Assembly: GCF_006345805.1 (NCBI RefSeq)
Contig: NC_043024.1
Span: 124,001 to 188,000, forward strand
From: Octopus sinensis
Lineage: Eukaryota
Direction of reading: 5' to 3'
DNA: 64,000 nt
Part shown: positions 5,291 to 56,297 of the stretch, in pieces
How positions within the stretch are numbered: position 1 is the stretch's first letter
Layout: each line of letters opens with the position of its first letter
Notes under the pieces: model-generated
Told to the model about the DNA's origin: nothing
Databases searched by the model: none
Seen by the model: only the letters and a program-made list of their open reading frames with translations
Translations under genes and position numbers: made by a program

Positions 5291-5620
5291 ATATTAGGGA
5301 ATAAATCCAAATTTACAGGAAAAAATCAGATTTAGGATTAAATCCAATTTTATAGTAAAATATTATATAATATTAATTCGAGACAAAACCACTATTTTGC
5401 AATACAAACAAGGAAAGACTTAACCAATACATAAAAATTTTAATATAAAGAAATAAACCGCCACTACAATCGTTTCATGTCTTCGAAAATCCACCTGACG
5501 AATGTCATTGAAGACATGAAACGATTGTAGTGGCGGTTTATTTCTTTATATTAAAAATTTTTATGTGTATTGATTAAGTCTGTCCTTGTTTGTATTGACA
5601 AATAGTGGTTTTGTCTCGAA

Positions 5621-5630
<10 letters not shown>
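5291..5630. mobile_element. Non-autonomous PLE-like fold-back element in (TA)n
   Basis: Arms 5369-5484 and 5509-5630 are inverted, with an HHR core at the centre. The left terminus ATATTAGGGAATAAATCCAAATTTACAGG is shared with 49725. Confidence 0.75.
5491..5533 (+). ncRNA. Minimal type-I hammerhead ribozyme
   Basis: CCAC CTGACGA ATGTC-attgaa-GACAT GAAA CGATTG TA GTGG: intact core, perfect stems I and II, GUA cleavage triplet. Confidence 0.85.
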
Positions 5631-5659
<29 letters not shown>

Positions 5660-5663
<4 letters not shown>

Positions 5664-5886
5664 GAGCACCATTTTCATCTACCGGATTGCTCCGGTAGTA
5701 ACACTCAATGACCACAGCATTAATTTGTTTGCTCCATCTACGCCGTGTGCGGTGGTTCATTTCTGGATATCGACAGGCTGGAGCCGGACCAGAATATCTG
5801 ACCCTACCGGATGTAACACTGTCACCATCATTCGCTTCAGTTTCTTTACTGCCGTTATTCACAATATTTTGTTTTTTCATTGTCAC
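5660..5886 (-). pseudogene. N-terminal fragment of an R4/Dong-type (RLE) non-LTR retrotransposon ORF
   Basis: RRRWSKQINAVVIECYYRSNP resembles the N-terminal motif of R4/Dong-like ORFs (from recall); truncated by (TA)n. Confidence 0.55.
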
Positions 5887-22672: not shown

Positions 22673-22772
22673 NNNNNNNNNNNNNNNNNNNNNNNNNNNN
22701 NNNNNNNNNNNNNNNNNNNNNNNNNNNNNNNNNNNNNNNNNNNNNNNNNNNNNNNNNNNNNNNNNNNNNNNN
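22673..22772. other. Assembly gap (100 N)
   Basis: Run of N. Confidence 1.
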
Positions 22773-23442: not shown

Positions 23443-23831
23443 TTGTATTTCAGGATGGTCATTTTTTTTCTTGCCAAATAAACACACACACACTATATAT
23501 TTGTTCTTCACTCGTTTATTACTTTTCTTATTCTAATTTATGTCCATTGTCCGGAAATCTTTCCTCACACATCTGTGACCTCTTCAGGAACGCTTTCTGT
23601 GTTTGTGTGTGCTCTTGTTTCACTTATTCCATTCTCTGAGAATGGAATAAGCAGAGATAGAGCATACATGAACAGGGAAAGTGTTGCTGAAGAGGTCACA
23701 GATGTGTGAGGAAAGATTTCCGGTCAATGGAGATGAGTTAGAATAGAAACAGTAATAAACAAGTGAAGAACAAATATATTGAGCATGCCCTTATTTGACA
23801 AGGAATAACAAATGACCATCCCAAAATACAA
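23443..23831. repeat. Diverged fold-back inverted repeat (about 195-bp arms) with degenerate HHR-like core
   Basis: Centre CTTATTCCATTCTC-T-GAGAATGGAATAAG at 23637; CTGAAGA GG TCACA-gatg-TGTGA G GAAA at 23687-23714. Confidence 0.8.
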
Positions 23832-28757: not shown

Positions 28758-28829
28758 GGTCTCATAGTGTAATGGTTAGCACTCTGGACTTTGAATCCAG
28801 CAATCCAAGTTCAAATCTTGATGAGACCT
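28758..28829 (+). tRNA. tRNA-Gln(TTG), possibly decayed or pseudo
   Basis: GGTCTCA TA GTGT AATGGTTA GCAC T CTGGA CTTTGAA TCCAG CAAT CCAAG TTCAAAT CTTGA TGAGACC T: full cloverleaf with one C:A mismatch in the T-stem; a T-run follows about 15 nt downstream. Confidence 0.9.
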
Positions 28830-33617: not shown

Positions 33618-33665
33618 GTCTCTGATGATGGGATATCCTTTATATCCATGAAACAGCTGTAAGAC
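33618..33665 (+). ncRNA. Minimal type-I hammerhead motif in a PLE-like pLTR (about 32890-33730)
   Basis: GTCT CTGATGA tgGGATAT-ccttt-ATATCCat GAAA CAGCTG TA AGAC: palindromic stem III, GUA site; base of stem II is mismatched. Confidence 0.75.
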
Positions 33666-34145: not shown

Positions 34146-34205
<60 letters not shown>

Positions 34206-35356
34206 TCACACACACACGCACATATGCATTCATGTGTGTATGGATGTATGTATTTACACTTGCGTGTGTGTGTGTGTGTGTGTAATGCACATATTAACCT
34301 TTGATATTCATTTAGCTAATTGATTTGATAACATCAATTAGGAGTGAATTTAGTGAAAAATTAATGGCATGGTTGGACGGGTGGGGATTTCAGAAAGCAT
34401 GATGCTTAGAAATATAGTATTGTGTCCTAATTAGAGTCCATCTGTCTGTCAGATCTTTAGAATTGGAAGATGCACAGTCGCACACACACACACTCACATG
34501 CATGTGCACACACATACACCCATAGATGGACATACATGGACACACACGCGCACGTCAAAATATTTATACGCACTGTCCAGTTTTAACTGGGTATTTGCCA
34601 GCAACTGAAAACGCTGAAGGTTAAGACTGTGTTTTTTTTGCAAATGATAAGAAGGAATAATGCTAATTCATACATACTGTGTGTATATCCTCTTGCTGCT
34701 GCTTCTCCCCCCTCCTCCTCCTCATCTTCGTCAATATCGTCATTGTCATCATAATTATCATCCTCCTCCAGGTTATCGTTGTCATCATCATCCTGGTCAT
34801 TGTCGTTGTCATCATCATCATTGTCACCACCACCATCATCATCCTAGTCATTGTCGTTATCATCATCATCATCGTTGTTATTGTTGTAATCATCATCATC
34901 ATCTTTATCATTGTCGTCGTCATCATCATCATTGTAATTGTTGTTGTCATTGTCATCATCATCCTTGTCATCACTGTCGTCATCATCAGTATCATTGTCT
35001 TCACCATCATAATCATCATTAACTGCAACAGCACGCATGGGTTGGCTAGATCTACACACTTACTAGTCTTGAGTGCATTTGGCTTTCATAAACACACACA
35101 CAATTATCGCCAAGTGCAGTCACCACAAAACTGGCGAAAAAACAGTCTGACCAATTATCTGCCATAACCAGGAATATACTGCTCTTGCAAACCAGATACA
35201 AAAAGGAAATATATATATATATTTCCTTTTTGTATCTGGTTTGCAAGATTATTTATGTGAATTTGTGTGTTGAAAAAAATTTTGTTGTGTCTAGGAAGAG
35301 TCATTATGCCAATATTATTAACACACACACACTGTTCAATTCCACTTCTTTATGCC

Positions 35357-35599
35357 GTGGGCATATGGCGTAGTGGTTAAGAGCGCAGGCTACTAGCCCC
35401 AAGATTCCGAGTTAGATTCCAAGCAGTGACCTAAAAATAACAATAGTAATAATAATAATATTGAAAAATAGCTTAGGAATGAGAACCTAGGTTCAAAATT
35501 TCCCCAAGACACCTGAAGAAGGCTGAGGGTATATCAGCTGAAACGTTGTGTTAACAACAAACAAGATGAGGACAAATATCTGTTGAATGTAAATAATGC
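35357..35599 (+). mobile_element. tRNA-headed SINE with hammerhead-containing tail (second copy 36991-37234)
   Basis: A box TGGCGTAGTGG, B box GAGTTAGATTCC, (TAA)n linker, then the HHR. Confidence 0.75.
35508..35552 (+). ncRNA. Minimal (dimer-type) hammerhead motif
   Basis: GACAC CTGAAGA a GGCTG-agggtatat-CAGCT GAAA CG TT GTGTT; palindrome AACGTT, GUU site. Confidence 0.7.
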
Positions 35600-35750
35600 A
35601 AACGACTCACTGTTTAACCAAGATAAACAAACATTGATTTGTTAGTTGGATATCTAATCATTGACTAATAATAAAGGAATGGAATTGAACCAGTGTGTGT
35701 GTCATTAATATTTGCATAATGATTCTCTCTAGATAGAACAAAATATGCAT

Positions 35751-35828
<78 letters not shown>

Positions 35829-35883
35829 TCACACACACACGCACATATGCATTCATGTGTGTATGGATGTATGTATTTACACT

Positions 35884-35919
<36 letters not shown>

Positions 35920-37142
35920 GCACATATTAACCTTTGATATTCATTTAGCTAATTGATTTGATAACATCAATTAGGAGTGAATTTAGTGAAAAATTAATGG
36001 CATGGTTGGACGGGTGGGGATTTCAGAAAGCATGATGCTTAGAAATATAGTATTGTGTCCTAATTAGAGTCCATCTGTCTGTCAGATCTTTAGAATTGGA
36101 AGATGCACAGTCGCACACACACACACTCACATGCATGTGCACACACATACACCCATAGATGGACATACATGGACACACACGCGCACGTCAAAATATTTAT
36201 ACGCACTGTCCAGTTTTAACTGGGTATTTGCCAGCAACTGAAAACGCTGAAGGTTAAGACTGTGTTTTTTTGCAAATGATAAGAAGGAATAATGCTAATT
36301 CATACATACTGTGTGTATATCCTCTTGCTGCTGCTTCTCCCCCCTCCTCCTCCTCATCTTCGTCAATATCGTCATTGTCATCATAATTATCATCCTCCTC
36401 CAGGTTATCGTTGTCATCATCATCCTGGTCATTGTCGTTGTCATCATCATCATTGTCACCACCACCATCATCATCCTAGTCATTGTCGTTATCATCATCA
36501 TCATCGTTGTTATTGTTGTAATCATCATCATCATCTTTATCATTGTCGTCGTCATCATCATCATTGTAATTGTTGTTGTCATTGTCATCATCATCCTTGT
36601 CATCACTGTCGTCATCATCAGTATCATTGTCTTCACCATCATAATCATCATTAACTGCAACAGCACGCATGGGTTGGCTAGATCTACACACTTACTAGTC
36701 TTGAGTGCATTTGGCTTTCATAAACACACACACAATTATCGCCAAGTGCAGTCACCACAAAACTGGCGAAAAAACAGTCTGACCAATTATCTGCCATAAC
36801 CAGGAATATACTGCTCTTGCAAACCAGATACAAAAAGGAAATATATATATATATATTTCCTTTTTGTATCTGGTTTGCAAGATTATTTATGTGAATTTGT
36901 GTGTTGAAAAAAATTTTGTTGTGTCTAGGAAGAGTCATTATGCCAATATTATTAACACACACACACTGGTTCAATTCCACTTCTTTATGCCGTGGGCATA
37001 TGGCGTAGTGGTTAAGAGCGCAGGCTACTAGCCCCAAGATTCCGAGTTAGATTCCAAGCAGTGACCTAAAAATAACAATAGTAATAATAATAATATTGAA
37101 AAATAGCTTAGGAATGAGAACCTAGGTTCAAAATTTCCCCAA

Positions 37143-37188
37143 GACACCTGAAGAAGGCTGGAGGGTATATCAGCTGAAACGTTGTGTT
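37143..37188 (+). ncRNA. Minimal hammerhead motif (duplicate of 35508-35552)
   Basis: Same motif in the second duplication unit. Confidence 0.7.
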
Positions 37189-39869
37189 AACAACAAACAA
37201 GATGAGGACAAATATCTGTTGAATGTAAATAATGCAAACGACTCACTGTTTAACCAAGATAAACAAACAATTGATTTGTTAGTTGGATATCTAATCAATT
37301 GACTAATAATAAAGGAATGGAATTGAACCAGTGTGTGTGTCATTAATATTTGCATAATGATTCTCTCTAGATAGAACAAAATATGCATACACACACACAC
37401 ACACATATATATATATATGTACATAAATAAATATATATGTATATACATACATCTGATTCCTCTCCTGCCCATTTTCTATAAACACATTTACAATTTGTCA
37501 CATATTTTGCATGTCTAACAGAAAATGCTACTATCTTTTCTTTCTAATCTTTGCATCTCCTCCACTTTCAAGACCACATCTCACAACCATGTGGCATTCG
37601 TACATAAGTATTATACAACCTGCCTCTCTTTTTGCAAGATAGGCCTTTTGTTATCAACAAAGCTAATAGCTCTCTGGATTTTTTCCAAACAGTTATTATT
37701 CTAGCAGCTGTACTTTCAGAACATCCTCCACTGCTGATAATTAGGTTACCTAATTAACAGAAACTATCTTCTTCTTTTAGACATTCTCCTTGTCTAGAAA
37801 AATCTACTTCCAATGTGTTCTTAGTGTTTATTGCTCCTGTTCATCTGCCACAAACAAAGTCTACTTTCTCCGTTAACCTTCCCGTTACTCCATCATGTCT
37901 CTTATGTGTCCTTAGTTTGCGCTGGGTGTGTGTATATTACATACATATATTTATATCTCTAAACTGCCTGTCAGCCTGTCTATATCTGCCTGTCTGTTTA
38001 TTTCTCTGTCTGTCTGTTTATCCCACTCTATCTCTGACTAGATAAGATGTGGATTCAGAGAACCATGCTGCTATCACAGAAAGCTCCTCTTATGCTTTCG
38101 GCTATCAGTTCACATAGTAAACCAATACAAAGAAATGTCATGGTTACCAAAAATTCAGACGATCTGATTGATAAAAATATTTCATGAGGAGTATAGAAAA
38201 CCATAAAGTCAGAGTAATGGGGACATAAACACACCAACATCGGTTGTCAAGTGATGGTGAGATGACAAACACAGACACAAAGACACATGATGGGCTTCTT
38301 TCAGTTTCTGTCTACCAAATCCACTCACAACACTTTGGTCGGCCCGAGGCTATAGTAGAAGACACTTGCCCAAGGTGTCATGCAGTGGGACTGAACCTGG
38401 AACCATGTGGTTGGGAAACAAGTTTCTTACCACACAGTTCTCACAGTATTGATCAGGCCATCAGATGCTGTTATACACTGCTGGTCACAATGCACTTCCA
38501 ATTCTGTCTTCATTGCACCTTTCTTTTCCATCTCAACCTAAATTACTTAACCAAATCCCCTTCCCATCATCATGGAGGCCTTCCAAGTGGCTTTTTTCAA
38601 TCTCTTGGATAATACTTGACAACTGCATGGGTCTGTGAACCTTGCAATATGTCCAGCCCAGTGGAACTTGTGCTTTTGGTACTCTGCAATCACATCATTC
38701 ATTCTGCACCATTCTTCACTCATCTCATTTCAAATATACTCTCATAATGATATTCCTAACATGGATCTTTCCATGGCCTTTTGTGCCGTAGCCAATCGAT
38801 GTTCTATCCTCTTTGTATTATATGTGCCGGTATCATGTAAGTGGCACCCATGCTGGTGACACATAAATGGTACCGACTACACTCACAGAGTGGTTGGCAT
38901 TAGGAAGGGCACCCAACCGTAGAAACCAAGCCTGGTGCAGCTCTCTGGCTCACCAGTTCTACCCAAGCTGTCTAACCCCTGCCAGTATGGAAAGTGGACG
39001 TTAAATGATGATGAAATGTATAAAGGATAAAGTTCCTCTCCAAGGCACAAGTCTTGGCAAAGTTGTTTTACGGAAGACCAGCAGTCACCCATACATATAA
39101 GCCTCCCATCTCCATGCCACTGATGTTGTCCAAGGGAAAGGCAAAGGGGCTGATACAGCTTGGCACCAGTGATGCCACAACTCATTTCTACAGCTGAGTA
39201 AACTGGAGAAATATAAATTAAAGTGTCTTGCTTAAGAACACAACACACAGCTCGGTCCAAGAATCGAACTCATTACCACAATTTTGAGCCTGATGCTCAA
39301 ACCACAGAGCCATGTGCCTTCATGGTGAAATCTATGTTCACAAATTAATGCAAATAAAGAAAGCCAGTGCATCAGATAATGTTTCTGATTATTTTTCACA
39401 CATTCACAAAAGAAATATAAAAAACAAGAAAAGGCATTAAACATTTAAATTTTTAGAAATTTTTTATTTCTCATTTGTATCTTTTTCATTATTACTTGTT
39501 CTTTTCCAACAATCCATTTCATTCTATTTTTTTTCATTTAGCATATCTTCTCCATCACCATTATTATTATTTTTGTTATCATCAATCATCTCGTTCTATA
39601 CATTATAATATGTATTTTTATTATCACAAACAATACAATAGCAATCACTCTTGTCATTATACTAATATTCGTTATTAATAGAGCAATTAGAATGTATTGA
39701 TTTTGGCATGTGGCCAAACTTATTGAAACAGGATACAACTGATTAGATCTATAATACAATATATTACTGATGGTTATTTAATCAGTACCCTGCTAACAAA
39801 AGAAAGAAAAAAGCATATTTGATCTCAGCTGGATTATAATATTTTATATGCTATACTGAGTTCTAATGA

Positions 39870-45056: not shown

Positions 45057-45413
45057 TCAAACATAGAATTCTCGGCACTGTTCATCATCCCGTTCTTTGA
45101 TGCCAAGCTCTCCATTGAGCAGAGTCTCTGTGGTTTCAACACTGTCTATCAGGTTATGTTGATCTGAGAAAGAGTCCCGGTGTCGCGGAAGCAAGAACGT
45201 GACACGTGTCTTCCGTCGACACTGCAATACAATGTATATGATACAGCCAAGCACAACGATGACTCCCAGGGTGACCACAATGGCTATTTTAATGTTGTAC
45301 AGCAGCTTCTTATTGCCATAAATGAAATGGTGTGAGTGTAAACGCTCATGGTGATGGAAATTGTTTGACCTGAATATCTGCGATGCTAAAGATATTTCGT
45401 TGCTGTGATCCAT
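45057..45413 (-). CDS. 118-aa single-pass membrane protein with His-rich N-terminus and C-terminal EFYV (PDZ-ligand-like)
   Basis: ATG in strong Kozak context ACCGCCATGG; TM IAIVVTLGVIVVLGCIIYIVL followed by CRRK stop-transfer; acceptor-like ...CATAACATAG before 45494; AATAAA at 44808-44803. The frame is open from 45494, so it could instead be a terminal exon. Confidence 0.8.
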   Translation of the reverse strand: MDHSNEISLASQIFRSNNFHHHERLHSHHFIYGNKKLLYNIKIAIVVTLGVIVVLGCIIYIVLQCRRKTRVTFLLPRHRDSFSDQHNLIDSVETTETLLNGELGIKERDDEQCREFYV

Positions 45414-46176
45414 GGCGGTGGTGAGAAATCTATTTTGGGATTCCAGTTTGAATATTTTGATGTTGTTACTGATGAGTAAATTACATATATACATCTATGT
45501 TATGGATGTGTGTGTAGAAAGAGAGAGTGTGTGTAGGCATGGTGGGTATTCACAAAGAGAAAGAGAGAGATAAAGAGAAAGACAAAGAAATTGTATGTGT
45601 GACTAAATAGTCAATCTTTTAAAGTAGAGAAAAGAAAGTTTATGAAAATCAATATTTGTCATGTAAGCTAAAATAGAGAACAGAAAAAATCCACAAAGCT
45701 AATAAGAAAACTTTTTAGAGAAACTAGTTTAATGTTATATATGTGTGTGTGTATTATATATATTTATGTGTGTGTGTGTGTGTATAAATTATAATGGTAT
45801 ACTATATATATGATGATGATGATATATATATATATATTTTGTGCTGAGACGACAGTCATACAAAATTCGTAGATTAATGGAATCTTAGTCTGCTTTGCTT
45901 TTGTGTTTTTTTCTTCTTTTTCTTTAAGTTGTTTTCTTTAATTTCCAAGTGAATTTTTTCTTCTTTACAGGTTTGTATGAATATAGACAGACAAATGAAT
46001 GAATCTGTCTGTAAAAGTTAGGCAAATCTAGGCAGAAGTAAAATGAATCAGAAATAGAAATTGTGCGGAGATGGGAGAAAGGTAAACAAGATTAGGGAGA
46101 GAGAGAAATGGTAAAAGTGTGATTGGAGTAACAAGTTAAGCAGAAGTAAGATTGATAGATGTCAGGTAAGTAGACT

Positions 46177-47247: not shown

Positions 47248-47354
47248 CTGTAAAGAGAAGAAAAAGAAATCAGTCTCCATTATAGAACATTATAGAAAGT
47301 GAAGATAAAAGAGGCACAGGAAATATACATATCTACATACGCACATATATACAC

Positions 47355-47860
47355 AAGTAGTGGAAATCAGCTGCCCAGCGGATGTTAACATAAAGCTAAA
47401 GATGAGTGTAAAAAAAAATACCTATGCTGAATTATTGAAGAATCTACAGCTACTCTATGCAGATTACAAGTTCAGATTTGTACCTGTAATTATTGGGGCA
47501 CTGGGATATGTAGCACACTGCCTAAATACCAATCTTCAGAAATTAGGCTTCTCAAAACCAGAAAGAAGAAAGCTGATTCGAAGACTATGGATCCAATCCA
47601 TCATTGGAACTGTAAAAATATGTAAAACTTTCCAGATGTTCATCATTCAAGTATATATGAGCATGTCTAGATATGTAACTATATGCATGAGAATACATAC
47701 ATAAAGAAAAACATACAAATCTGCATGTATACAGACATACATGCATACAAAAATACTCTGTTGTTGATGCTGAAATCCCAATGAAGGAGTATTGCATCTC
47801 AGTTAGAAACTGGATCTTTCTCTATTCGCAGGAAATCTTGAAATAAAACTAAATAATGAC
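47355..47860 (+). pseudogene. RLE-type LINE 3-prime remnant
   Basis: VEISCPADVNI...KK..Y..LL..LQLLY..YKFRFVPVIIGALG RLE signature plus 3-prime UTR. Confidence 0.8.
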
Positions 47861-54770: not shown

Positions 54771-55733
54771 TATCAGATCATTAAGAATGAAGTGTCCGAT
54801 TTTCTTATGCACCAAGTTTGACAGTCATTAACTCTAATGTTTTATCCTGACAATTCTTTGTTTTACAACATTGAAGGGTTACATCATCACTTTTCACAAT
54901 ACAATTCATGGTGTCTGATTACATTGAGAATTTTCTCTTGTAAATCAATTTTTGTGAACCCATAGATAGATAAAACATTTGTGTTCTTTATGAATGAGTT
55001 CTGTTGTGGAACCAATGCATCCCAGACAGCTCAAAACATCAATGGAGTGTTTGGGGAAAATGCGGCGAATGAGTAGACTGTACGTTGATGGTTTGAGAAG
55101 TTCTCGTCTGGTGACTTTACTCTTGAAAATCAGTCCCATGGTAGAGCTGAGGTGGATAATGATGGGCTGGAAACTATAGCAGAAGCAGATACATCTCAAA
55201 CTATGCATGAGTTAGCAGCGAAGTTTGATGCATCGATTCCAAGTGTATTGGACCACCTGAAACAAATTAGCAAGGTAAAGAAGCTGGACAAGCGGGTACC
55301 ACACAAATTGAACGAGCATCAAAGGACATGTTGTCTTGAAACTTGCTGTTCTTTGCTGTCTCGGCATAAAAGCAAAACATTTTTGCATCATATTGTTACA
55401 TGTGATGGAAAATGGATTCTTTTCAACAATGGCAAGTATTCTGCACAATGGTTAGATAGAAACGAAGTGCCAAAACAAAGAATATTCACCAAAACAAGCA
55501 AATGGTGTCAGTTTGGTGGTCCAACACTGATGTCATCCCCTACAGCTTCATGAGACCTGGTAAGTCAGTTACAGCGGATGTATACAACAACCAACTGGAC
55601 AAAATGATGAGTGAACTTGCAATTAAACGACCAAGATTGGTCAATAGAGACAGGCCAGTTCTCTTGCAAGACAATGCTTGACCACATGTTGCACAAAGAA
55701 TGCTACTCAAGTTACAGGAACTAACTTGGAAGT
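54771..55733 (+). pseudogene. Mariner (DD34D) transposase remnant with left TIR
   Basis: KLDKRVPHKL (WVPHEL motif), FLHHIVTCDGKWILFNN and PVLLQDNA*PH motifs; frameshifts and stops. Confidence 0.9.
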
Positions 55734-55734
55734 A

Positions 55735-56297
55735 CTCCAAGTTTTTGCTAGGTTAACTCTAAGTCCCTTTGATTCTAGACCTTGTTTCCATACCTGGGAC
55801 TCCTTCTCTAGTTCTGGTAGTGACAGGTATAAGAGCAAGGTCATCAGCATAGAGGAGCTCCAGGGGCATCCTGTCTTGAATTCCTCTGTTATTACCTGGA
55901 GGACTATGATGAACAAAAAGGGGATGAGCACTGATCCTTGATGAATCTCTACTTGTACCCTGAATTCTTTACTGTATTTGTTGCCCACCCTCACCTTACT
56001 GGTAGCATCCCTGTACAAGGCTTGTACAGCTCTTACCAACCACTCGTCTATCCCTAGTTTCCACACTGATCACCAGATAACGGATCGGGGGACTCTGTCA
56101 AAAGCTTTCTCCAAGTCAGCAAAAGCCAGGTACAGAGGTTTAGCGTTGGCTAGGTATTTCTCCTGTAGTTGCCTTACCAGAAATATAGCATAAGTGGTGC
56201 TTCTACCTGGCACAAAGCCAAACTGCATCACATCTAGACCAATTCTCTCCATGATTAGTTGGGCTATGACTCTCTCTGCAACTTTCAAAATATGTGG
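55735..56297 (-). pseudogene. RTE-clade LINE reverse transcriptase fragment
   Basis: QFGFVPGRSTT..., AFADLEKAFDRVPR, HQGSVL.PFLF and LYADDL motifs; stop and frameshift present. Confidence 0.92.

What the first reader, a model, noticed from the sequence alone, without database searches (positions are those of the whole stretch)
35357..35599. tRNA-promoter SINE head fused to a hammerhead tail: a candidate Penelope-mobilised SINE
Seen in sequence: a tRNA-like head with A and B boxes, a (TAA)n linker, then GACAC-CTGAAGA-aGGCTG..CAGCT-GAAACGTT-GTGTT and an AT-rich end; no RTE/LINE-type tail is visible. Established: SINEs normally borrow LINE 3-prime ends, and Schistosoma Sm-alpha is a rare tRNA-related repeat carrying an HHR. 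Inference: a Pol III transcript processed by a ribozyme and copied by PLE machinery. Both copies here come from one tandem duplication, so this window alone does not prove the fusion is a family.
Basis: partly seen in the sequence, partly recalled or inferred. Interest (0 to 1): 0.75.

Follow-up and report, generated by a model that had tools for sequence, protein, structure and literature searches.

The report
Octopus SINE riding Penelope retroelement machinery
This is one copy of a short, highly repeated DNA element, found in several genomes including Octopus bimaculoides, that joins a tRNA-like head to a minimal hammerhead-ribozyme motif and is likely copied by the enzyme of a Penelope-like retroelement rather than by the LINE enzymes that normally spread SINEs.

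Summary
Observation confirmed. 35359-35602 holds an A box, a one-mismatch B box, a (TAA)-like linker and a minimal type I hammerhead of the kind described for Penelope-like elements (PLEs). The window's two copies count as one (no substitutions between them). Laid reads and contigs show a dispersed family with sharp ends: depth about 100 to 11,000 times the flanks, head and start of tail at about 1:1 depth, and head-to-tail joins at other loci. The family shows PLE insertion marks: more 3' than 5' depth, inverted 5' pieces, a partial tandem and an optional 3' extension of about 32 nt. A sister family runs in frame into a longer shared coding sequence in 3 of 122 proteins; its PLE identity is recalled, not confirmed. 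Best reading: a likely Pol III SINE whose tail is a PLE reverse-transcription start region. Ribozyme processing is unsupported: no read ends pile up, and a cut would part head from tail. No autonomous partner and no Pol III transcript were shown. Ten literature searches found no description, but repeat libraries could not be checked. The scan had not noted this DNA before.

The parts
35359..35602 (+). Whole element, copy 1 (head + linker + PLE-type module; lacks the optional 3' extension)
   Evidence: Depth steps at 35357-35359 and 35598-35602 in all 4 laid runs
35352..35356 (-). 5-nt remnant of an inverted copy of the head's own 5' end
   Evidence: Seen in sequence; longer inverted pieces are the consensus of loose ends before 35358-35359
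35359..35431 (+). tRNA-like head
   Evidence: 41 of 74 columns identical to the window's tRNA-Gln, 0 of 1000 shuffles as high; no Rfam or ARAGORN hit
35366..35376 (+). A box (predicted Pol III type 2 promoter)
   Evidence: Full match to recalled consensus
35411..35420 (+). B box, one mismatch in this copy, 34 nt after the A box
   Evidence: the family majority has the consensus C at 35414
35433..35462 (+). Degenerate (TAA)n linker
   Evidence: Seen in sequence
35463..35602 (+). PLE-type module; a frame opens at ATG 35479 and is broken in this copy by a stop and a missing base
   Evidence: the same frame is unbroken in O. bimaculoides protein P0003
35508..35552 (+). Minimal type I hammerhead motif, predicted cut after 35547, predicted to fold as a dimer only
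   Evidence: features as in Cervera and de la Pena 2014
35564..35572 (+). 5' arm of a predicted 9-bp hairpin whose 3' arm lies in the extension that this copy lacks
   Evidence: Complementarity read by eye from the loose-end consensus behind 35598
35586..35602 (+). AT-rich main 3' end, 120-124 nt after the ATG
   Evidence: Loose ends at 35598 and 35602; distances
36994..37238 (+). Copy 2, inside the 1.6-kb tandem duplication; not an independent insertion
35250..35353 (+). Left arm of the hairpin-like host repeat into which the element inserted (not part of the element)
   Evidence: 78% complementary to 35671-35773; joints that skip the element at other loci
35671..35773 (-). Right arm of the host hairpin repeat (not part of the element)

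Best explanation
[quoted passage not shown] Shown: the anatomy, the family, the head-tail linkage at other loci, and the PLE-type insertion marks. Inferred: Pol III starts at 35359; the 3' module is a captured piece of a PLE's pseudo-LTR and ORF start; the PLE protein binds it, nicks AT-rich DNA and starts reverse transcription inside the RNA at one of two sites (35598-35602, or about 32 nt further on), which would explain the optional extension and why no terminator or poly(A) is needed; integration leaves inverted 5' pieces and partial tandems. The hammerhead is probably carried along as part of that module and would not normally cut the single transcript.
For: Family: summed contig depth over the head is 846-922 times the left flank and over the tail 6,003-10,936 times the right flank; in RNA reads 104-139 and 545-604 times; 19 of 24 listed runs from 6 coded organisms hold 28-76% of the words; O. 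bimaculoides records P0002 and P0003 carry the tail frame. Linkage: depth at the start of the tail is 0.99, 1.03, 1.24 and 1.13 times head depth in the 4 runs; 2 of the 16 listed contig pieces cross the linker with 9 and 12 differences from the window; 8 of 12 listed rows of table 5c join head to tail; RNA depth across the linker is about 280 and 210 against about 13 in the left flank. PLE marks (as listed): 3' depth 2.3-3.8 times head depth; loose ends before the head are its own inverted start (623 and 462 reads; 116 and 146 contigs); 4 of 15 listed joints link the head start to the opposite strand of the tail; one go-back joint 35583>35480 at depth 1587; a shared extension behind 35598 (1531 and 1038 reads), also encoded by P0003 and P0017. 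All four marks of PLE minimal hammerheads are met. Main 3' end lies 120-124 nt after the ATG against 111-118 nt in the anole PLE. No T4 terminator until 36214. Sister family (74% identical over 88 nt): 26 of 120 proteins have tandem units, 26 of 120 an inverted piece, always before the first sense unit, and 3 of 122 run on into one shared coding sequence.
Against: No autonomous element sharing this exact tail was found; the coding continuation belongs to the sister family and no tool named it (Pfam 76, 91; Atlas 77, 84; PDB 80; longer proteins 75; viral loci 79; model pLDDT 50). RNA reads lie equally on both strands and show no sharp start at 35359, so Pol III transcription is not shown. Identity to the one tRNA at hand is 55%, under the 60% rule of SINEBase, and Rfam sees no tRNA or hammerhead. 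The share of heads that are linked to a tail could not be counted: no genome is held, the tool cuts reads at the linker, and most table rows were not shown. Covariation is one pair in three sequences, not above shuffles (164 of 500), and stem I is broken at 3 of 5 pairs in the sister copy. The cut site lies 69 nt after the ATG here against 26 nt in the anole PLE.
Confidence: 0.65

Rival explanations
1. Two separate repeats: a simple tRNA-(TAA)n SINE, and PLE end fragments that insert again and again into its AT-rich tail, so the fusion is recurrent nesting, not one mobile unit.
For: The anole PLE endonuclease prefers ATT and Naiad PLEs favour microsatellites. The 3' part is 2.3-3.8 times deeper than the head. 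Rows at the linker were dropped by the tool.
Against: Head and tail-start depths are near 1:1 in all 4 runs; the join is in the same orientation and register in both listed bridging contigs; opposite-strand joints tie the head start to tail sequence; the excess 3' depth rises gradually, as 5' truncation of one RNA predicts.
Confidence: 0.12
2. An ordinary LINE-mobilised SINE whose body happens to hold an old PLE fragment; the short tandem unit at the 3' end is the LINE-type tail.
For: Some copies carry an extra unit of the short AT-rich 3' repeat (loose ends behind 35602). SINEs and RTE, Dong-R4, CR1 and L1-Tx1 LINEs are abundant and recently active in O. vulgaris.
Against: Inverted 5' pieces, a partial tandem and a fixed optional extension are PLE marks; the hammerhead core is kept unchanged between two families 74% identical; no target-site duplication abuts this copy (longest exact repeat 7 nt, set back from the ends).
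Confidence: 0.08
3. The unit is the terminal repeat of an autonomous PLE that itself carries the tRNA-like head; the copies are truncated insertions of that element, not a SINE.
For: The tail holds a reading frame that, in the sister family, continues into a longer coding sequence; truncated ends are the usual PLE product.
Against: Depth falls about 850-920-fold at the tRNA +1 position and the consensus before it is the inverted head, not upstream element sequence; downstream, depth also collapses.
Confidence: 0.08
4. A retrozyme-like element as the first reader half implies: transcripts are cut by the hammerhead, circularised and re-inserted as multimers.
For: Type I hammerhead; one high-depth go-back joint; tandem units in the sister family; non-LTR retrozymes are proposed PLE derivatives.
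Against: Copies begin at tRNA +1, not at the cut site; no pile-up of read ends and no joint at 35547 among 15 of 124 joints listed; most sister copies have one unit (94 of 120); minimal hammerheads showed no cleavage as monomers. Library type may hide small or circular RNAs.
Confidence: 0.07

Closest known systems
Sm-alpha / Sj-alpha SINE-like elements of Schistosoma (Ferbeyre 1998, seen only through PMC6765202 and PMC8490949 passages)
   Same: Short non-coding repeat combining a Pol III-type promoter with a type I hammerhead.
   Different: Sm-alpha is described as often tandem, with an active ribozyme that frees monomers and leaves the promoter at their 3' end. Here copies are mostly dispersed, start at tRNA +1 and carry the minimal, loopless PLE hammerhead plus PLE insertion marks. 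Sequence homology was not tested.
Pseudo-LTR / ORF-start region of endonuclease-bearing PLEs (Penelope/Poseidon; anole PAc, PMC11167929; PMC4209133)
   Same: Minimal hammerhead with extra nucleotide, G10.1-C11.1 and palindromic stem III; reading frame through the hammerhead; optional 3' extension; inverted and tandem pieces; 5' truncation.
   Different: No RT or GIY-YIG coding sequence; a tRNA-like head replaces the rest of the element; cut site to ATG distance differs (69 vs 26 nt).
Non-LTR retrozymes (PMC7229834; bioRxiv 10.64898/2026.07.22.740005) and non-autonomous Chlamys such as MRC1 (PMC8557442)
   Same: Non-autonomous, PLE-related ends, presumed use of PLE enzymes.
   Different: Defined by tandem units and circular RNA (retrozymes) or by pLTRs without a canonical hammerhead (Chlamys); no tRNA head or Pol III promoter appeared in the parts read.
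tRNA-derived SINEs, including the three octopus families of Ohshima and Okada 1994 (seen only as a citation; OR2 is a CORE SINE)
   Same: Head-body-tail layout, A and B boxes, high copy number.
   Different: Tail is PLE-type rather than LINE-derived. Whether this family is one of the three named octopus SINEs could not be checked (paper and SINEBase table not readable).

Membership tests
SINE (SINEBase definition) | Short (<1 kb), interspersed, non-tandem | tested here: met
   244 nt here; sharp ends with unlike flanks in 79-80% of laid RNA reads
SINE (SINEBase definition) | [quoted passage not shown] | tested here: met
   Summed contig depth about 2.2 million against 41-62 for single listed contigs; not a true copy number, but far above 100
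SINE (SINEBase definition) | At least 60% identity to a tRNA over 60 nt | tested here: inconclusive
   41 of 74 (55%) to the only tRNA at hand, using a decayed copy; no Rfam tRNA hit
SINE (SINEBase definition) | [quoted passage not shown] | not testable with these tools
   Boxes present; RNA-seq reads on both strands, no sharp start
SINE (SINEBase definition) | Reverse transcription by a partner LINE | tested here: inconclusive
   No LINE tail found in the window; marks point to a PLE; no LINE library to search
PLE minimal hammerhead (PMC4209133) | Type I core with short helix I and enlarged helix II | tested here: met
   5-bp stem I, 6-bp stem II, 0 of 200 shuffles
PLE minimal hammerhead (PMC4209133) | [quoted passage not shown] | tested here: met
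   also in L003
PLE minimal hammerhead (PMC4209133) | G10.1-C11.1 pair | tested here: met
   G-U in this copy; C in 1105 of 1566 and 1183 of 1613 reads of X22 and in L003
PLE minimal hammerhead (PMC4209133) | Palindromic positions 15.2-16.2 | tested here: met
   CG with no loop
PLE minimal hammerhead (PMC4209133) | Self-cleavage (weak, as dimer or protein-assisted) | not testable with these tools
   No read-end pile-up; the lowest-energy two-strand fold of copy 1 does not form the stem III dimer
PLE-type insertion (PMC8557442, PMC11167929) | 5' truncation, inverted 5' piece, partial tandem | tested here: met
   sister family
PLE-type insertion (PMC8557442, PMC11167929) | Optional 30-40 nt 3' extension | tested here: met
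   Shared loose ends behind 35598; about 32 nt from P0003 and P0017
Autonomous PLE | ORF with RT and GIY-YIG endonuclease | tested here: not met
   Element is 244 nt; no such ORF in or beside it among 57 ORFs of 110 aa or more, judged by eye
Non-autonomous PLE derivative | 3' end shared with an identified autonomous PLE | tested here: inconclusive
   Coding continuation in the sister family only, unnamed by tools
Non-LTR retrozyme | At least two tandem units each with a complete hammerhead | tested here: not met
   The window's pair is a 1.6-kb segmental duplication with flanks; no short tandem array at this locus
Non-LTR retrozyme | Abundant circular RNA bounded by the cut site | tested here: inconclusive
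   No such joint among 15 of 124 listed; standard cDNA libraries
Sm-alpha family | Sequence homology to Sm-alpha | not tested
   No Sm-alpha sequence was available from a tool

The most novel reading that the evidence does not exclude
A major octopus SINE family, of the order of 10^4 to 10^5 copies, has a Penelope-like element instead of a LINE as its partner: a Pol III promoter grafted onto the very RNA region where PLE reverse transcription starts internally. It would be a SINE class defined by a PLE tail, not yet described, and a natural minimal substrate, sampled thousands of times, for how PLEs choose start sites and make inverted and tandem ends.
Probability: 0.5. Interest if true: 0.75.

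Novelty: new variant of a known kind. Interest (0 to 1): 0.6.

Why it matters
SINEs are defined as dependents of LINEs. A high-copy SINE with a Penelope partner widens that rule to the third class of retroelements and would reclassify part of the large, mostly unclassified SINE fraction of octopus genomes (893 of 900 recently active SINE families unclassified). It also gives a 250-280 nt natural template to test open points of PLE transposition: what the protein recognises, why there are two start sites, how inverted ends arise, and whether the hammerhead is needed. Interest is held down because Sm-alpha already joins a Pol III promoter to a hammerhead, non-autonomous PLE derivatives are known, and the sequence itself is probably in octopus repeat libraries under some name.

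Tried and rejected
No whole genome is held, so copies could not be counted directly. Rfam found no tRNA or hammerhead in the element at gathering or E-value thresholds. DNA pattern scans found nothing in viral contigs, metagenome contigs or prokaryote genomes; L001 and L002 are chance peptide matches (L001 inspected; L002 has the same weak match). P0004, P0012 and P0014 of the 30 hits are unrelated repetitive proteins and were dropped, with the query P0001, before the counts. Attempts to name the sister family's coding continuation all failed; its model is low-confidence (pLDDT 50.5; helices at 83-117 and 131-190), so no fold search was run. P0138 has an RT stretch behind the unit (Pfam RVT_1; weak telomerase-like PDB matches, E 0.03-0.04), but it is a single case and may be an insertion into an old element, so it is not counted as a partner. 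Covariation on three sequences is uninformative. The flanking inverted repeats were first considered part of the element and rejected: they have their own, far lower depth and occur joined without the element. A 13-nt near-repeat at 35327/35605 was rejected as a target-site duplication because its left copy lies inside the host arm. Supplements 1 and 3 of PMC11167929 gave nothing usable.

Full report
Observation. The window at 35359-35602 reads as described. An A box at 35366-35376 matches the recalled type 2 consensus fully and a B box 34 nt later has one mismatch. The same A+B test hit 4 places in the window against a mean of 0.015 in 200 shuffles. The head aligns to the window's tRNA-Gln at 41 of 74 columns, above all 1000 shuffles, but ARAGORN and Rfam do not call it a tRNA. 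After a (TAA)-like linker lies a hammerhead motif at 35508-35552 with 5-bp stem I, one extra base after the core, 6-bp stem II and a loopless palindromic stem III; 0 of 200 shuffled windows gave a minimal match. A first descriptor lacking the extra base missed it and Rfam has no hit. These are the four recurring marks of PLE minimal hammerheads in Cervera and de la Pena 2014: extra base, G10.1-C11.1 (G-U here, C in about 70% of reads), palindromic 15.2-16.2, and large families per genome.

The two window copies are one event. They lie in a 1.6-kb tandem duplication whose units differ by no substitution over about 1,560 aligned bases, only by indels. That fits a very recent duplication or a false duplication in the assembly. 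The flanking inverted arms (35250-35353 and 35671-35773) are a separate hairpin-like repeat: they have their own low depth and are joined without the element at other loci. No target-site duplication abuts the element.

It is a family. No genome is held, so I used public runs. Of 24 listed runs, 19 from 6 coded organisms hold 28-76% of the words. Four were laid on 35226-35750 at 82% likeness. Depth steps up at 35357-35359 and down at 35598-35602: head over left flank 846-922-fold in DNA contigs and 104-139-fold in RNA reads; tail over right flank 6,003-10,936-fold and 545-604-fold. The tool warns that summed depth is no copy number; set against 41-62 for single listed contigs it suggests 10^4 to 10^5 copies (inference). 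Two predicted proteins named Octopus bimaculoides by their sources carry the translated tail (P0002, P0003), so the family occurs in that species; the window's own species is not known.

Head and tail travel together. Depth at the start of the tail is 0.99, 1.03, 1.24 and 1.13 times head depth in the four runs. Two of the 16 contig pieces listed (of about 45,000) cross the linker, with 9 and 12 differences from the window; 8 of the 12 listed rows of table 5c (of 52) join head to tail with internal deletions or replacements; RNA depth across the linker is about 280 and 210 against about 13 in the left flank. The share of linked heads cannot be given, because the tool cuts reads at the linker and hides most rows.

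Insertion marks are those of PLEs. Craig et al. 2021 list 5' truncation, partial tandems, an inverted piece at the 5' end and an optional 30-40 bp tail. Here 3' depth is 2.3-3.8 times head depth. The consensus of loose ends before the head is the head's own start inverted (22 of 23 letters in 623 and 462 RNA reads; 8 and 10 letters in 116 and 146 contigs; compared by eye), and the window copy keeps 5 letters of it. Of 15 listed joints (of 124), 4 link the head start to the opposite strand of the tail, and a go-back joint 35583>35480 stands at depth 1587 in one run. A shared extension follows 35598 in 1531 and 1038 reads; P0003 and P0017 encode it and put it at about 32 nt. Its start is complementary to 35564-35572, so the main 3' end would sit in a hairpin loop. 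Fold-back chimeras in RNA libraries could mimic the inverted ends, but DNA contigs and the window itself show them too.

The tail looks like a PLE ORF start. In the anole PLE the frame begins in the hammerhead, reverse transcription starts inside the RNA in a stem-loop 111-118 nt into the ORF, the tail is the stretch between two start sites, and hammerhead cleavage is protein-assisted and not needed for insertion in vitro. Here an ATG at 35479 opens a frame through the hammerhead, broken in this copy but whole in P0003, and the main 3' end lies 120-124 nt after it. A search with that frame gave 30 hits and a profile search 407, of which 120 were listed. Nearly all listed are a sister family in unnamed ENA contigs, about 40% identical in translation and 74% over 88 nt in the one DNA copy obtained (L003). 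Of the 120, 26 have two to five tandem units and 26 an antisense piece, always before the first sense unit. Of 122 proteins with the unit's end motif, 3 continue into the same 86-97 residue sequence at 84-91% identity: a longer coding parent exists. It resembles the N-terminus of Penelope/Poseidon ORFs as I recall them, but Pfam, the Atlas, PDB, longer proteins and viral loci did not name it and its model is poor. Whether the sister family has a tRNA head is unknown; L003 is 5'-truncated.

Mechanism. Most likely Pol III starts at tRNA +1 (inferred from the boxes and the sharp 5' end) and runs through, since no T4 lies before 36214. A PLE protein would bind the 3' module and start reverse transcription internally, so no defined RNA 3' end is needed. 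The hammerhead is probably a retained part of that module. A cut after 35547 would leave the promoter on one piece and the start site on the other; minimal hammerheads did not cleave as monomers; and no place with many read starts or ends was found, as also reported for the anole element. RNA reads fall equally on both strands, which fits passive transcription inside other RNAs or unstranded libraries and gives no support for a Pol III product.

Comparison with what is known. Sm-alpha joins a Pol III promoter to a hammerhead but is described as often tandem and cleavage-dependent. Non-LTR retrozymes and MRC1-type elements are non-autonomous PLE relatives with no tRNA head in the parts read. 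By SINEBase rules the element meets size and copy number, is inconclusive on tRNA identity and untested on Pol III. Ten searches of the held library listed no paper describing a tRNA-headed, PLE-tailed SINE; some listed only part of their hits, and subscription papers, Repbase, Dfam, the SINEBase table and the O. vulgaris repeat library are out of reach, so the sequence may already bear a name such as one of the 1994 octopus SINEs. Earlier notes of this scan hold no look-alike DNA and only one-off or failed SINE-hammerhead cases elsewhere.

Papers seen. Parts 1-2 of 4: PMC4209133, PMC11167929 (supplements 1 and 3; its sequence file was unreadable). Parts 1-3 of 5: bioRxiv 10.64898/2026.07.22.740005. 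Parts 1-2 of 3: PMC13282606. Passages plus the Definitions section: PMC3531059. Passages only: PMC6962438, PMC4758252, PMC9115989, PMC10886601, PMC8557442, PMC6765202, PMC7229834, PMC9223172, PMC8967140, PMC8490949. Not seen, known only as citations or through reviews: Ohshima and Okada 1994, Ferbeyre 1998, Lunse 2017 (not held).

Verdict. A real, abundant composite family; best read as a SINE-like element mobilised by a Penelope-like partner (0.65). New variant of a known kind; interest 0.6.

Noticed in passing
window 34146-37452: The two units of the 1.6-kb tandem duplication differ only by indels, with no substitution; possibly a false duplication in the assembly.
   Followed up: partly
window 35250-35353 and 35671-35773: Arms of a low-copy hairpin-like repeat family that hosts the element; other loci join the arms without it.
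   Followed up: partly
window 35183-35248 (and 36815-36882): Perfect 66-68 bp palindrome centred on a TA run, just upstream of the host arm.
   Followed up: no
window 5491-5533 (+): A second, unrelated type I hammerhead motif with a short stem III that passes both descriptors.
   Followed up: no
window 33618-33665 (+): Hammerhead-like core with palindromic stem III region; fails my descriptors, probably decayed.
   Followed up: no
window 23495-23779: 142-nt inverted arms, 85% complementary, 1 nt apart, each carrying a hammerhead-core-like pattern without stems.
   Followed up: no
window 28758-28829 (+): tRNA-Gln(TTG) gene, Rfam 64.9 bits, followed closely by a dispersed repeat copy.
   Followed up: partly
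window 45057-45494 (+): 145-aa open frame with a hydrophobic stretch followed by basic residues, like the last exon of a single-pass membrane protein (judged by eye).
   Followed up: no
window 5551-5886 (-), 47309-47704 (+), 55089-55553 (+), 55707-56069 (-): Frames that look like fragments of Dong/R4 LINE, mariner transposase and RTE-type RT (resemblance recalled, not searched).
   Followed up: no
protein P0002 (O. bimaculoides, named dystrobrevin beta isoform X1): Its N-terminus holds 21 residues of this element's tail frame (19 identical): an exonised copy or a gene-model error.
   Followed up: partly
L003 5977-6142: 5'-truncated sister-family copy with a 12-bp direct repeat around it, ending where the optional extension would begin; it lies in a repeat-rich, animal-like 375-kb contig filed in a bacterial MAG, probably contamination.
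   Followed up: partly
window 22673-22772: A run of 100 N, an assembly gap.
   Followed up: no
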